A DNA stretch of 64,000 nt from Tubulanus polymorphus (taxonomy: Eukaryota > Animalia > Nemertea): NCBI RefSeq assembly GCF_964204645.1, contig NC_134025.1, positions 5,592,871-5,656,870 on the forward strand, given 5' to 3'. The notes below the pieces were generated by a model, which did not search any database, was not told where the DNA came from, and worked only from the letters and a program-made list of their open reading frames with translations. The translations under genes were made by a program, and so were the position numbers. Shown in pieces: positions 47,269-58,427 of the stretch (its first letter is position 1; each line of letters begins with the position of its first letter).

Positions 47269-47516
47269 TCAAGGTTCCAACTCGGTTAACGAACCCCACG
47301 TAGGTCCCGCTTGAATTTTCACAGGGAATTTTACGGATAACTGCATCGCGTTTTCCATGTTCGTTTTGATGATTTGCGCGACTCGTATCAGATCAGACGC
47401 GGCAACTTCATATATCAGTTCGTCGTGTAATTGTAGAATGAAGAACGCTCCTGATAGATGATGATTGCTCAATCGTCGACTGTGTCTTCTCAACGAATCT
47501 ACAAAAACAACATTTT
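47269..47516 (-). CDS. POLQ: POLQ exon 24 (motif C HDE, stop TGA 47269-47271; alternative acceptor at 47498)
   Basis: ...[60 protein letters not shown]. Confidence 0.75.
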
Positions 47517-50500
47517 CTTTATTAAAGGATCGTAACAAAAAGATTTAAGCCAATAATCAATTCTATGTACTGAAACAGGGTGGCTACTTTTATTTGAATT
47601 GGCCCTATTCCCGGACATGCACGTTGTTTTCACGGACTTGATCTGCTAAGAATCCAATCAATTAACACAATCTAATACATAAGTCATAGACGGAAACACT
47701 GTTTGATTTTACGTACAATCTAGCAACCTCAACGAATAACCCGGACTTTTCCATGATTTTGAGCTATTTTACAGAATTCTCTGACTATTCCTCGACTTAT
47801 CCCTGACTTCCAGGTAAGTGGCCATCCTGAGAAGAACTTAAGTTGCGAAACATTGAAACATAGGTCACATAATTTTCATGGATGACGAAAGTCATGTTTT
47901 TACCTGAGGAGGGATTATTGGATTTGTGAGTGTGCGAATATCTACAGTTCGGAAAAACTCGCTGTAACTCATCGTCGATATTAATCATAGCCTTCTTCAC
48001 CATGTCTGCTGCAGAACCTTGAACGGTAGTATTCACTGCTTGTCTCTCAGCCTGGAATAGAAATATTCCCTTTAATCATGTATCATACAAGACTGAAGTT
48101 AGCACTTATTCATTCAATCGAGTAAACTTACATGAGCTCGAGCATGAGGATTAGTATCTTTAATTGCTGGCAGGTAGCGTTTACGGCCAAGTAATGTCTG
48201 CACATAACCAACATCCCGACATTTATTAACTGTATCTCGCAGATATGACCGCATTCCTGAAAATTACAGGATATTTTGAGCAAATTACATTGTATCCAGT
48301 TAAATACCTTGATCAACCCAGGAGTTGATACGGTATCTTTCATAATTATATATACCTGTATATTTAGCCTTAAAAGTCTCTATAAATTGTGCAGCTTCTT
48401 CAAGGTCAACTTGCAACTGTTCACCGAGAGCTTTTGGTCCGATTCCATAAATCATACCGTAACAGATCTGTCAATCAAGGAATAATACGCATAGTAAAGT
48501 ACATTCACAAGCAAAAATATTTTAGACAGAATTATTTGATGACGTGTTTGAAGTAAAATGCTGACAATTGTAACTTTCTACAAATGCATCTTCAAATCTT
48601 TTGGATGTCACACCTGTTTTGCCTGCTGCCGTTCTTCAGCTGTGACTTCATGAACGTCCTTGTTTTTCCATTGAGCTGTAATCTGTTTGAACACATCTTC
48701 ACCGCTGTTTAGAATTCTAATCAGCTTCATATCACCAGATAGATGCGCTATCATTCTCAACTCCAACTGAGAATAGTCAGCAGCAACAATCACTCCATCT
48801 ATTAGTAAAATAGTAAACGTTGTACGTCGTTTTTTCAGTAATTTTAACTAGTTGTAATGAAGACCACTGAAAGATATTATGTCACCTTTAAATGGTAGAA
48901 ATGCATGTCTCATACTGACAGCTGTAATATGTTCACCCGATACACTATCTTCCGGTTTCGTTTGGATGTCGAAATCTTTCGGGATATTCTGAAAGTTTGG
49001 TTCGGACATTGTGACACGTCCCGTTGCCGTATGAGTTTGAGTTACGCTGTAAATACGATCCATTTCCAGCGTGGAGTTGAATTGGCGACATTTCATATAC
49101 GGATAAACAACCTATAATTGATAAAATCATGATGAACTGAAGATTATTTCTCTAACTTGAAATATTGAGTGCAGCGAGTAACACAGGTTGCTTTCATTTA
49201 TATTCACTTTTGTTAATGCACAGTTGATTCTACGCCATTCTAGAATGATGCTTGGGAGCGGATGCATGTTGACCAATTTAGACAGGATATCCTTCGAAGT
49301 ACTGAAAGCATTTTGTCCACGGCCCCCACGAACTTTTTTCGGTATACAAGCAGGTACAGCGGGATCACCACTCGGAGGTAGTCCTAACTCCACGAACAAT
49401 ACCTAAACCATAATCGAAAGTATGATAAAGGACTTCTTAGATCTTGTTTATGCATGAAAACCAAATGAACTTACCTGGCCAACATCCTCAGGGGAACTTA
49501 AAGAAAACGAATGGTTGGCCAATCGATACGCCTCCACTTCTAACGTTGTCAATTTCATTTGCATCACATTTTTCTGTTGCTCACATATATCATGGCTGAA
49601 TCCTATAATGTATCAATATTCATTCTATAAGTCAATTGAGGCAGGAATATCTTTGAATATACAATTGCATTTAAATGAAATATCTTTACCCATGCCATTC
49701 ATTTCCATTCTAGCTAGGCAAATCACAGAAGGCATCTCGATTTCATGAAATGAAGTGAATAAATTATCCTCTTTCAGTTTATTGTTGAAATATTGCATCA
49801 AATGAAGTACTAATACAGATTCAGTAGCAGCTCGAACACGACCAGGTCCAGGATTCTTAGTGGTCATTCCTAGACTTGCAAGACCAATACCACCTCCTAC
49901 AGCTACAATGGATATAGAACAGGAAATTACTGTTATATACCCTAAGATGTATTAGTTTGTTTTTCATTTCTTCAGTTTATATTGGTTTCTAAATATATCA
50001 TTATCATTACCCTCTAAAAGATGTACATCAAATGGTAGAAAATTGGTCACCATGCCATGAAGAGTCTTCTCTCGAGCCCCGGGATCAAACAACCACAACG
50101 CTACTTTAGGATCCTCGAATTTTGCGCGGGGAACAACATCACAGGTCCTTGACAGTGCTTTATATTGTTCCTTAACATCGAATGCAATTACAGTTCTAGG
50201 TTTGGAAGATTGTAGTACTGTTTGCACCACTTGCAATCTACAGTCGAGAGACAATTCATCGTCTATAGCCGCTGGTGCTAAACTATCATCAAGATCTGTA
50301 TAATAATCAATGAAACTTTTTGACTTTTGATTTTTGACCGCTTGACCTGCAGATCCCAAAAATTCACTCCTAAGATTCAACACATTTGACAGGGTATTCA
50401 ATAGTAGGAATACCTGGTAATATTCGATTCAAGGGGAGGAATGAATTGTCCAGCAGCAGCCCTACCTTGCTGTCGATGATTCGTAAAGGCAATATAATAA

Positions 50501-57265: not shown

Positions 57266-58427
57266 TCCCAGAGATGAATTGAAAGACAACTCGGCAACAA
57301 ACTGAACGTCATTATTGGAAATTCCACCATTCTGAAAACAGACCAAGTTAATAGTTTGCGAAATGGATTTTTTCAAAGCTTAGTTAATATACCGATAGAT
57401 AAGCTTAGAATACCCAGTCTTACTCCTGAATGAAATATTCATTTATGATAGTAACTCAGGCGTACCTGTTCATGTTGTTGCTTGTCTTTTCTTTGGTTAT
57501 CAATATCATTTGAAGTGCTGTTAAAGCAAAAAGCCAGAAAAGATTATTATCTTTACACATTTGATCTTTTTTGGCGTGATGAGTTTCAATAATGGGTCAA
57601 ATCATTACTTTATGTTATTCACTTTTGTGGGATATGTTTGGTTCACAGGTATTCGACCAAGAAATCTTCTCTTTCCTCCTTCCATCGGAATATTCTTAAA
57701 TCATAAGCCAAACTCAAGCATCATCTCTATCCTTACTTGGATGAAAAACGAAAAGGTTAGAACTACAAGAAATACAAATTCTAATCAACCTTTCTCTTTG
57801 CTGGGTACAAGTTTTTCTGACTATTGCCAGGAGGCACTGTTGTATGTCATTAGACTGTTGTAGTCAAAGTGCAGCATCAGTCAGCGAGGCCGGGGCATGA
57901 TGGTTGTGTTCTGATATTGGATTACTAAAAAATCAAGTCAAGCATGTCAAGCGGTACTATTTCATTGGACAGTTGGATAGCAACAATAATGGGCCCTGTG
58001 TCGTGAAAAGCCCTGTGATATATCCGACCATGTCTGAGTGTAGCCACCCATCACCCATACTGTACTGCTGGTATCTATGACCATCATCTATGGATTGGAC
58101 ATTGGCTGTTGGGCGCAGACATGGTTTTATTGGTTGTATTGTGGTCCGCTGTGTGTGGACTGTGCACAGGGGCTCATCACGATAGCTGGGGGTAAAAATC
58201 AAAGATTTGACCCAGTATCCTAGGTACCACCTATAAAAAAAGGTCTTTTTTTTGGCGGTAAGCTTTTTATAATCGGAATCGGATGGGCTTATACCAACGT
58301 GGAAATATCCGATCGTGAAACTAAACCACAGACAGGTTACTTTAACTTACTGACTACTACTTGTCACCCGTGTGTGGATGATTCACGATTGCCTTATTCA
58401 CATTCAGCCTTATATATACAAAACCGC

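What the first reader, a model, noticed from the sequence alone, without database searches (positions are those of the whole stretch)
47269..57376. Full-length POLQ (DNA polymerase theta) gene with a putative long low-complexity N-terminal extension
Helicase, giant central exon and A-family polymerase exons are all present and in phase. Upstream of the conserved DRKLL..WGLP start of the helicase lies a 289-codon open minus-strand frame (56507-57376) in AT-rich DNA. It is in a different frame from exon 2, but GT at 56694-56693 and AG at 56607-56606 define an 89-nt intron that restores the frame exactly. That would add about 190 residues of N/S/D-rich sequence in front of the helicase. A stop-free stretch this long in AT-rich sequence is unlikely by chance.
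Basis: partly seen in the sequence, partly recalled or inferred. Interest (0 to 1): 0.5.

Follow-up and report, generated by a model that had tools for sequence, protein, structure and literature searches.

The report
POLQ gene with long N-terminal tail
The open frame upstream of the helicase is a real coding exon of a complete, mollusc-type DNA polymerase theta gene, adding about 240 polar, probably disordered residues, as related invertebrate POLQ genes also have; this is ordinary gene structure, and only the true start codon remains unresolved.

Summary
The 289-codon minus-strand frame (56507-57376), GT at 56694-93, AG at 56607-06 and the frame-restoring 89-nt intron are all present. A 24-exon, 2457-codon, stop-free POLQ model (57331..47269) carries every POLQ domain.

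The upstream frame is coding. Its codon-usage score (+62 bits) matches real exons (77±7), not non-coding DNA (−77±25). No shuffle of the window produced so long an open frame. The helicase-start exon has no ATG of its own.

It is orthologous to POLQ N-termini elsewhere. The only library-wide hit (P0097, E 7e-4) lies directly upstream of POLQ helicase exons on another eukaryote contig, and the Saccostrea POLQ model shares the same N-terminal motif.

Three corrections:
- Coding most likely begins at a conserved acceptor (exon start 57331), 22 codons before the first ATG. The true ATG then probably sits in an unidentified upstream mini-exon, as in Saccostrea.
- The 56694 donor is weak, and an in-frame donor at 56820 cannot be excluded.
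- The tail is N/S/D-rich but not low-complexity.

Verdict: a new member of a known kind, of low interest. The only mildly novel item is a conserved acidic amphipathic motif (57286-57203) of unknown function.

The parts
57623..57685 (-). Candidate coding mini-exon 1 (ATG GAA GGA ... ACA AAA|GTGAAT; MEGGKRRFLGRIPVNQTYPTK). Unproven.
   Evidence: It is the nearest ATG-initiated, phase-0, stop-free exon upstream of the 57331 acceptor. Its donor scores 6.9 with the gene's own matrix (training range 4.6 and above), and the same AAA|GTGAAT donor is used at 49208. The resulting intron of 291 nt fits this gene. No conservation supports it, and short upstream ATGs precede it.
57916..58133 (-). Cluster of five CCAAT boxes, all in the POLQ orientation; probable promoter.
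   Evidence: This is the densest CCAAT cluster in the 64-kb window: 5 in 250 nt against a mean of 0.63. It coincides with a local GC peak of 0.44. The promoter role is an inference only.
56695..57331 (-). N-terminal extension exon (212 codons plus 1 nt): [30 protein letters not shown]...LIDDNSI(G).
   Evidence: The frame is open. The codon log-likelihood is +62 bits in frame and -58 to -154 in the other five frames; real exons give 77±7 and non-coding DNA -77±25. The acceptor at the 57331 exon start scores 6.0. Saccostrea and L003 have an equivalent exon that also begins with an Asn codon directly after an acceptor.
57203..57286 (-). Conserved N-terminal motif [28 protein letters not shown] (acidic, amphipathic, helix-prone).
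   Evidence: It carries the only library-wide hit: P0097, FNSSFGGDLDDDFFSAVDQIEKNYIKD, E 7e-4, and 75% identity over 20 residues by tblastn, E 2e-5. A profile of the window plus P0097 finds the N-termini of P0004, P0002 and P0001 at E 1.5e-4 to 1.7e-3 among 45 POLQ N-termini. AlphaFold2 draws a helix at exon residues 26-42, but at pLDDT below 40.
56606..56694 (-). 89-nt GT-AG intron, phase 1, joining the extension to the helicase-start exon.
   Evidence: It restores the frame. The acceptor scores 9.9, above the mean of the other introns, and all top-ranked (8 listed) of the 82 frame-preserving solutions use it. The donor scores 2.6, which is weak. The length falls within this gene's usual 72-170 nt.
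56402..56605 (-). Helicase-start exon: (G)[67 protein letters not shown].
   Evidence: Similarity to human POLQ begins at PDRKLL, which matches human residue 66. This frame has a stop at 56651-56649 and no ATG before ITCMFDW, so the exon cannot start translation itself (read from the sequence).
52947..56305 (-). Ten exons encoding the rest of the Hel308/Ski2-like helicase domain.
   Evidence: Pfam finds DEAD, Helicase_C, HTH_61, POLQ_helical and DUF7898. The region scores 1046 bits against human POLQ helicase structures. Walker A (APTSAGKT), DELH, SAT and QMIGRAGR are intact.
50715..52848 (-). Giant central (linker) exon, 711 codons, polar and disordered-type.
   Evidence: It is a single open exon. 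Its composition matches that of the N-terminal tail. No homologue was found in the protein collection.
47269..50612 (-). Eleven exons encoding the exonuclease-like region and the family-A polymerase domain, ending in TGA at 47271-47269.
   Evidence: Pfam DNA_pol_A scores E 9e-107. Motifs A (DYSQLELR), B ([12 protein letters not shown]) and C ([10 protein letters not shown]) are intact. Poly(A) signals ATTAAA and AATAAA lie 84 and 357 nt downstream. The junctions at 50466/50295, 50011/49902 and 47904/47498 are best guesses among near-equal alternatives.

Best explanation
The region is a complete, apparently functional DNA polymerase theta (POLQ) gene of a mollusc-like animal, transcribed on the minus strand.

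Gene structure. The 289-codon frame is its N-terminal extension exon. The exon most likely begins at a conserved phase-0 acceptor (exon start 57331) and runs to 56695. It is then spliced through a short intron (89 nt in the preferred model) to the exon carrying [12 protein letters not shown], where the helicase domain starts. At least 239 residues therefore precede the helicase core, compared with 65 in human POLQ. The initiator ATG is probably in a small upstream exon, as in the Saccostrea model (MATHINK|NTGSD...). The nearest candidate is 57685-57623.

How the tail probably works. It behaves as an intrinsically disordered, fast-evolving region, like the central linker. It carries one conserved acidic amphipathic element near its N-terminus ([17 protein letters not shown]), which most plausibly serves as a docking site for a partner protein.

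Shown and inferred. Shown: the open frame, codon bias, splice signals, orthology and synteny with POLQ in two other genomes, and the full domain set. Inferred: the exact donor, the first exon, disorder, and any interaction function.
For: - ORF, splice signals and frame restoration.
- The ORF is longer than any stop-free run in 100 window shuffles.
- In-frame codon log-likelihood is +62 bits, within the exon range, and all other frames are strongly negative. The 22 codons upstream of the first ATG are also positive at +0.21 bits per codon.
- The helicase-start exon has no ATG before the conserved core, so an upstream coding exon is required.
- The only hit in 1.84 billion representative proteins is P0097 (E 7e-4), matching query residues 14-81. 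P0097 lies on the 2.2-Mb eukaryote contig L003, immediately upstream of POLQ helicase exons.
- The Saccostrea 'DNA polymerase theta-like' model P0002 has a 198-residue tail with the same motif and a comparable layout: mini-exon, motif exon, tail exon, intron, helicase-start exon.
- On contig L002 the P0004 tail (about 307 residues) and the helicase start form one uninterrupted ORF.
- In all three loci the motif exon starts with an Asn codon right after an acceptor. L003 has no ATG before the motif, because P0097's 'Met' is a TTG inside the polypyrimidine tract.
- The full-length model and its domains.
- Tail composition resembles the central linker. AlphaFold2 gives a mean pLDDT of 31 with a single helix over the motif.
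Against: - No transcript evidence is available.
- The 56694 donor scores below every other donor of the gene, and an in-frame donor at 56820 scores higher.
- No upstream mini-exon could be identified with confidence. Upstream DNA shows no conservation with L003 or Saccostrea. The best candidate is preceded by short upstream ATGs if transcription starts near the CCAAT cluster.
- Apart from the roughly 28-residue motif, the tail has no detectable similarity to any protein.
- The single-sequence AlphaFold2 model cannot by itself establish disorder.
Confidence: 0.85

Rival explanations
1. One reading: exon 1 is non-coding or absent, translation starts at ATG 57265, and the tail begins MDLGDDFF...
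For: ATG 57265 is the first in-frame ATG. It lies just before the most conserved part of the motif, so the motif would still be made. No convincing upstream coding exon was found.
Against: - The residues FNSS upstream of this Met are conserved in P0097, and SF.SS in P0002 and P0004.
- The aligned position in P0097 is Gly, not Met.
- L003 has no ATG before the motif, and Saccostrea uses a coding mini-exon.
- The 22 upstream codons have positive coding scores.
- An out-of-frame ATG at 57330-57328 opens a 45-codon frame that overlaps ATG 57265. That would hinder scanning ribosomes if nothing upstream were translated in frame.
Confidence: 0.3
2. The extension exon ends earlier, at the stronger in-frame donor GAA|GTGAAA (GT at 56820). 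This gives a 215-nt intron and a tail 42 residues shorter. It could also be an alternative isoform.
For: This donor scores 5.1 against 2.6 for 56694 and uses the same acceptor, giving the best combined score of the 82 frame-preserving solutions.
Against: The 42 codons between the two donors stay open, and the segment containing them (56845-56696) has exon-like codon bias of +0.25 bits per codon, with both other frames negative. An intron of 215 nt is longer than 21 of the 22 other introns of this gene, whereas 89 nt is typical.
Confidence: 0.15
3. The frame does not belong to POLQ. It would be a separate small gene, a decaying exon or a transposon remnant, with the POLQ N-terminus coming from another exon further upstream.
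For: There is no transcript evidence and no start codon in the frame before 57265. A MITE-like repeat lies about 1 kb upstream.
Against: - The homologous motif exon sits in the same position relative to the POLQ helicase exons in L003 and Saccostrea, and is part of an annotated POLQ model.
- On L002 the tail and the helicase start share one ORF.
- The Pfam scan of the full model, which included the tail, reported no transposon-related family. No hit to any other protein family was found.
- The frame joins the helicase exon through a strong acceptor.
Confidence: 0.04
4. The open frame is a chance stop-free run in AT-rich DNA.
For: The region is AT-rich, with 35% GC.
Against: No shuffle reached 289 codons. 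Codon bias is exon-like in one frame only. There is significant protein homology to P0097.
Confidence: 0.01

Closest known systems
Human DNA polymerase theta (POLQ; helicase-domain structures 5A9J/5AGA and later entries)
   Same: Same three-part architecture: a Hel308/Ski2-like helicase, a long disordered linker and a family-A polymerase. The helicase domain aligns end to end (1046 bits). Human POLQ also has an N-terminal extension before the helicase core. According to PMC4671958, constructs 1-894 and 67-894 were both crystallised, and part of the extension forms a loop and helix packed on domain 1.
   Different: The human extension is about 65 residues, against at least 239 here. No sequence similarity is detectable upstream of human residue 66. 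By eye and from memory of its sequence, the human N-terminus lacks the acidic DLxDDFFSAxDQIE element.
Saccostrea cucullata 'DNA polymerase theta-like' model (P0002) and the unnamed POLQ locus on ENA contig ERZ24900295:ctg6738l (L003/P0097)
   Same: Both are orthologous tails with the same N-terminal motif. The motif exon starts with Asn after a phase-0 acceptor, and an intron separates the tail from the helicase-start exon.
   Different: Tail lengths differ: 198 residues in Saccostrea, up to about 450 in L003 (its donor was not mapped), and about 240 here. Outside the motif the sequences cannot be aligned. In Saccostrea the motif exon and the rest of the tail are split by a 19-kb intron, whereas here they form one exon. 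Introns here are far shorter, 72-170 nt.
HELQ N-terminal disordered region (N-HELQ)
   Same: HELQ is a paralogous Hel308-type helicase core preceded by an intrinsically disordered N-terminal region that recruits the enzyme through RPA (abstracts of PMC8210318 and PMC11835494). This is an analogy for how an N-terminal tail on this helicase type can work.
   Different: No sequence relationship was tested or seen, and RPA binding of the POLQ tail is untested. This is only a 'works like' suggestion.
RPA70N-binding acidic/hydrophobic motifs (ATRIP 53-69, HelB, WRN, BLM and others)
   Same: These are motifs of about 20 residues mixing acidic and hydrophobic residues, and several form an amphipathic helix (PMC10479964). 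[18 protein letters not shown] has that character.
   Different: The same paper stresses that these motifs share little sequence similarity, so resemblance in composition is weak evidence. Acidic amphipathic helices bind many other partners.

Membership tests
DNA polymerase theta (POLQ/Mus308) | N-terminal Hel308/Ski2-like superfamily-2 helicase domain with intact ATPase motifs | tested here: met
   Pfam finds DEAD, Helicase_C, HTH_61 and POLQ_helical (E 7e-63). Human POLQ residues 66-900 align at 1046 bits. Walker [16 protein letters not shown] and QMIGRAGR are present.
DNA polymerase theta (POLQ/Mus308) | C-terminal family-A DNA polymerase domain with motifs A, B and C, in the same polypeptide | tested here: met
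   DNA_pol_A scores E 9e-107 over model residues 2014-2450. [20 protein letters not shown] and [10 protein letters not shown] are present. The 24-exon CDS has one continuous frame.
DNA polymerase theta (POLQ/Mus308) | Long, poorly conserved central linker between the helicase and the polymerase | tested here: met
   A single 2134-nt exon of polar composition, with no homologue in the protein collection.
DNA polymerase theta (POLQ/Mus308) | The upstream ORF is the orthologue of the N-terminal exon of other POLQ genes | tested here: met
   P0097 matches at E 7e-4 library-wide and lies upstream of POLQ helicase exons. The profile finds the Saccostrea and P0004 N-termini at E 1.5e-4 to 1.7e-3 in a set of 45 sequences. 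Support rests on a roughly 28-residue motif plus position in the gene.
DNA polymerase theta (POLQ/Mus308) | Defined initiator codon and first exon | tested here: inconclusive
   No in-frame ATG lies between the 57331 acceptor and 57265. The candidate mini-exon 57685-57623 is plausible but unsupported by conservation.
DNA polymerase theta (POLQ/Mus308) | Transcription and splicing as modelled (junctions 56695/56605 and x/57331) | not testable with these tools
   No RNA data for this organism. No same-species or congeneric protein is in the collections.
RPA70N-binding acidic amphipathic motif | Stretch of about 20 residues, acidic plus hydrophobic, able to form an amphipathic helix | tested here: inconclusive
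   The sequence character fits. AlphaFold2 draws a helix at exon residues 26-42, but at pLDDT below 40. The class has no sequence consensus (PMC10479964).
RPA70N-binding acidic amphipathic motif | Direct binding to the basic cleft of RPA70N | not testable with these tools
   This needs a complex prediction or a binding assay.

The most novel reading that the evidence does not exclude
The conserved element SF.SS..DL.DD(F/I)(F/L).A(M/V)(D/E)..E, found at the extreme N-terminus of mollusc-type POLQ (window 57286-57203, L003, Saccostrea, P0004), is an unrecognised docking motif. For example, it could be an RPA70N-type acidic helix that recruits or regulates Pol theta on RPA-coated single-stranded DNA. 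It would have been lost or replaced in vertebrates.
Probability: 0.12. Interest if true: 0.4.

Novelty: new member of a known kind. Interest (0 to 1): 0.15.

Why it matters
The main value is for annotation. Gene finders that demand an ATG in the helicase-start exon, or that stop at the first ATG of the upstream frame, would truncate this POLQ. The evidence here places the exon start at 57331 and predicts a further mini-exon. Biologically, long, fast-evolving N-terminal tails appear to be the rule in invertebrate POLQ. The one conserved acidic motif in the mollusc-type proteins is a reasonable candidate for a partner-binding site, but nothing here shows that it differs from an ordinary disordered tail.

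Tried and rejected
- Searching the tail alone in the word-indexed collection found nothing at E ≤ 10.
- BLASTP of the tail against 46 POLQ N-termini gave nothing significant.
- A hand-made cross-phylum motif profile, built from arthropod-like and mollusc N-termini without the window or P0097, did not pick out the window ORF among 2115 six-frame peptides. I therefore dropped my impression of a pan-protostome 'SF..SF...D/E..L..A.E' motif. Only the mollusc-type group is supported.
- The upstream 'ATGAACAG|gtacgc' at about 57472 looked like a start exon but is in the wrong phase and runs into a stop after splicing.
- A shared ATGTG(T/C)AAAGAT about 220 nt upstream of the acceptor in the window and in L003 is no better than chance (E 0.9).
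- Searching the central exon for a same-species or congeneric full-length model, which might have revealed the annotated start, found nothing.
- Single-sequence AlphaFold2 of the tail gave no confident structure, so no fold search was run.
- The organism could not be identified beyond 'mollusc-like'. The best helicase identities were 81% to Saccostrea and 86% in one exon to L003.
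Full report
**Observation**

On the minus strand an open frame of 289 codons runs from 57376 to 56507. GT lies at 56694-56693 in the context TTG|GTATGA, and AG at 56607-56606 in the context TTCATTACAG|GTT. Removing these 89 nt joins ...LIDDNSI to (G)[38 protein letters not shown] in one frame.

The frame is longer than chance allows. In 100 dinucleotide-preserving shuffles of the window, the longest stop-free run averaged 150 codons and never exceeded 234. In 2000 shuffles of the ORF itself the maximum was 189.

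**The whole gene**

I anchored on conserved peptides and enumerated GT-AG junctions. This gave a 24-exon model from 57331 to 47269, with 2457 codons and a single terminal TGA.

- Introns are 72-170 nt, apart from one of 405 nt.
- Pfam finds DEAD, Helicase_C, HTH_61, POLQ_helical, DUF7898 and DNA_pol_A (E 9e-107).
- Human POLQ residues 66-900 align with model residues 240-1070 at 1046 bits.
- The ATPase motifs and polymerase motifs A, B and C are intact.
- Three junctions in the polymerase half (50466/50295, 50011/49902, 47904/47498) are best guesses among near-equal alternatives. They do not affect the conclusions.

**Is the upstream frame coding?**

I trained codon frequencies on the other exons, with the gene's introns as background.

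| Sequence scored | Score (bits) |
|---|---|
| 212-codon stretch 57331-56696, in frame | +62 |
| Same stretch, the other five frames | −58 to −154 |
| In-frame windows of equal length from real exons | 77 ± 7 (minimum 60) |
| Upstream non-coding windows of equal length | −77 ± 25 (maximum −11) |

All four sub-segments score positive, including the 22 codons upstream of the first ATG.

The helicase-start exon cannot begin translation by itself. Its frame has a stop at 56651-56649 and no ATG before ITCMFDW, which is already inside the conserved core. An upstream coding exon is therefore required.

**Homology**

The tail alone found nothing in the word-indexed collection. A full HMMER scan of 1.84 billion representative proteins returned one protein, P0097 (E 7e-4). 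Its residues 17-86 match query residues 14-81: FNSSFGGDLDDDFFSAVDQIEKNYIKD against [27 protein letters not shown].

P0097 lies on a 2.2-Mb eukaryote contig, L003. There it sits directly upstream of exons encoding [15 protein letters not shown]..., [16 protein letters not shown]... and the rest of a POLQ helicase. It is therefore the orthologous N-terminal exon, and a longer one, up to about 450 residues.

The Saccostrea cucullata model annotated 'DNA polymerase theta-like' (P0002) has a 198-residue tail beginning MATHINK|NTGSDIDSSFSSSFCTELDEQMLVAMETLE. On the metagenomic contig L002 the P0004 tail, about 307 residues, and the helicase start form one uninterrupted ORF.

A profile built from the window and P0097 finds the N-termini of P0004, P0002 and P0001, at E 1.5e-4 to 1.7e-3 among 45 POLQ N-termini and at matching positions. 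Tails of 60-350 residues are common among the invertebrate hits.

**Where does the exon start?**

In Saccostrea a 7-codon mini-exon (ATG...AAA|gtaagt) is followed by a 273-nt intron and an exon that begins AAC, encoding Asn. In L003 the 'Met' of P0097 is a TTG inside tttttgtcacag|AAT, so that exon also begins with Asn after an acceptor, and it has no ATG before the motif.

The window has ctgttttcag|AAT GGT GGA at 57331, with an acceptor score of 6.0 that is within the gene's range. The residues just upstream of Met-57265 (SFNSS) are conserved, whereas the Met itself aligns to Gly in P0097. An out-of-frame ATG at 57330-57328 opens a 45-codon frame overlapping ATG 57265, which would be awkward if nothing upstream were translated in frame.

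I conclude, as an inference, that the exon starts at 57331 and that the initiator lies in a small upstream exon.

The nearest candidate is 57685-57623, encoding MEGGKRRFLGRIPVNQTYPTK|GTGAAT. Its donor scores 6.9, the same AAA|GTGAAT donor is used at 49208, and the intron would be 291 nt. It is not supported by conservation, and short upstream ATGs precede it. A cluster of five same-strand CCAAT boxes at 57916-58133 is the densest in the window and is a plausible promoter.

**The 89-nt intron**

The top-ranked frame-preserving, stop-free solutions (the eight listed of 82) all use the 56605 acceptor (score 9.9), so the acceptor is secure. The donor at 56694 scores only 2.6, below the minimum of 4.6 for the other donors. 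An in-frame donor at 56820 scores 5.1 and would give a 215-nt intron.

I still prefer 56694. The 42 intervening codons are open, the segment containing them (56845-56696) has exon-like codon bias, and 89 nt is a typical intron length for this gene. Only spliced reads can decide.

**Nature of the tail**

The tail is 11.7% N, 12.1% S and 8.8% D, with few aromatic residues. This is close to the composition of the central linker. No window falls below a SEG-type entropy trigger, so it is biased but not low-complexity.

Pfam finds no domain in it. Single-sequence AlphaFold2 gives a mean pLDDT of 31, with one helix drawn over [17 protein letters not shown]. The most likely reading is a disordered, fast-evolving tail carrying one conserved acidic amphipathic docking element.

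**Comparison with what is known**

Human POLQ has a 65-residue extension, part of which packs on helicase domain 1 (PMC4671958). No similarity to it is detectable here.

The paralogue HELQ has a disordered N-terminal region that recruits it through RPA. RPA70N partners use acidic-hydrophobic motifs of about 20 residues without a consensus sequence (PMC10479964). No paper linking POLQ's N-terminus to RPA70N was found. These parallels are leads, not tests.

**Verdict**

The finding is real and its interpretation is right in substance, but it describes normal gene structure for an invertebrate POLQ. Novelty: a new member of a known kind. Interest: low.

Noticed in passing
window 58437-59054: A MITE-like element. 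Its 42-nt terminal inverted repeats are 98% complementary (58437-58478 and 59013-59054), and they enclose tandem repeats of about 91 nt (58523-58795) plus shorter related units. From memory, this resembles bivalve MITEs that have a satellite-like core.
   Followed up: partly
window 57916-58133 (minus strand): Five CCAAT boxes, all in the POLQ orientation, within 220 nt. This is the densest cluster in the window (mean 0.63 per 250 nt) and sits on a local GC peak. It is a plausible NF-Y-type promoter for POLQ.
   Followed up: partly
window 57330-57193 (minus strand): An out-of-frame ATG immediately after the 57331 acceptor opens a 45-codon frame that overlaps the in-frame ATG at 57265. This bears on where translation starts.
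   Followed up: partly
window about 22600-38200 (plus strand): A series of ORFs with YWTD/FN3-like sequences and a tyrosine-kinase core ([17 protein letters not shown]), followed by a Ser/Asp-rich tail. It looks like a ROS1/sevenless-type receptor tyrosine kinase gene. This was read by eye and not tested.
   Followed up: no
window 43498-46577 (plus strand): Ser-rich ORFs of 232, 536 and 91 codons belong to an unidentified gene that converges on the 3' end of POLQ. The POLQ stop is at 47269, and poly(A) signals lie at 47184 and 46911.
   Followed up: no
window 14581-14974: A long simple TA-rich microsatellite. It translates as IYIYIY... on both strands and produces spurious ORFs of 124-129 codons.
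   Followed up: no
L003 10001-10012: The database protein P0097 starts at a TTG inside the polypyrimidine tract and acceptor (tttttgtcacag|AAT) of a eukaryotic exon. This is a prokaryote-style gene call on a eukaryote contig in an ENA metagenome assembly, so its first three residues are not real.
   Followed up: yes
window 47269-57331: The POLQ introns are unusually short (72-170 nt, one of 405 nt) compared with the orthologous Saccostrea locus, where the N-terminal introns span 273 nt to 19 kb. The organism was not identified.
   Followed up: no
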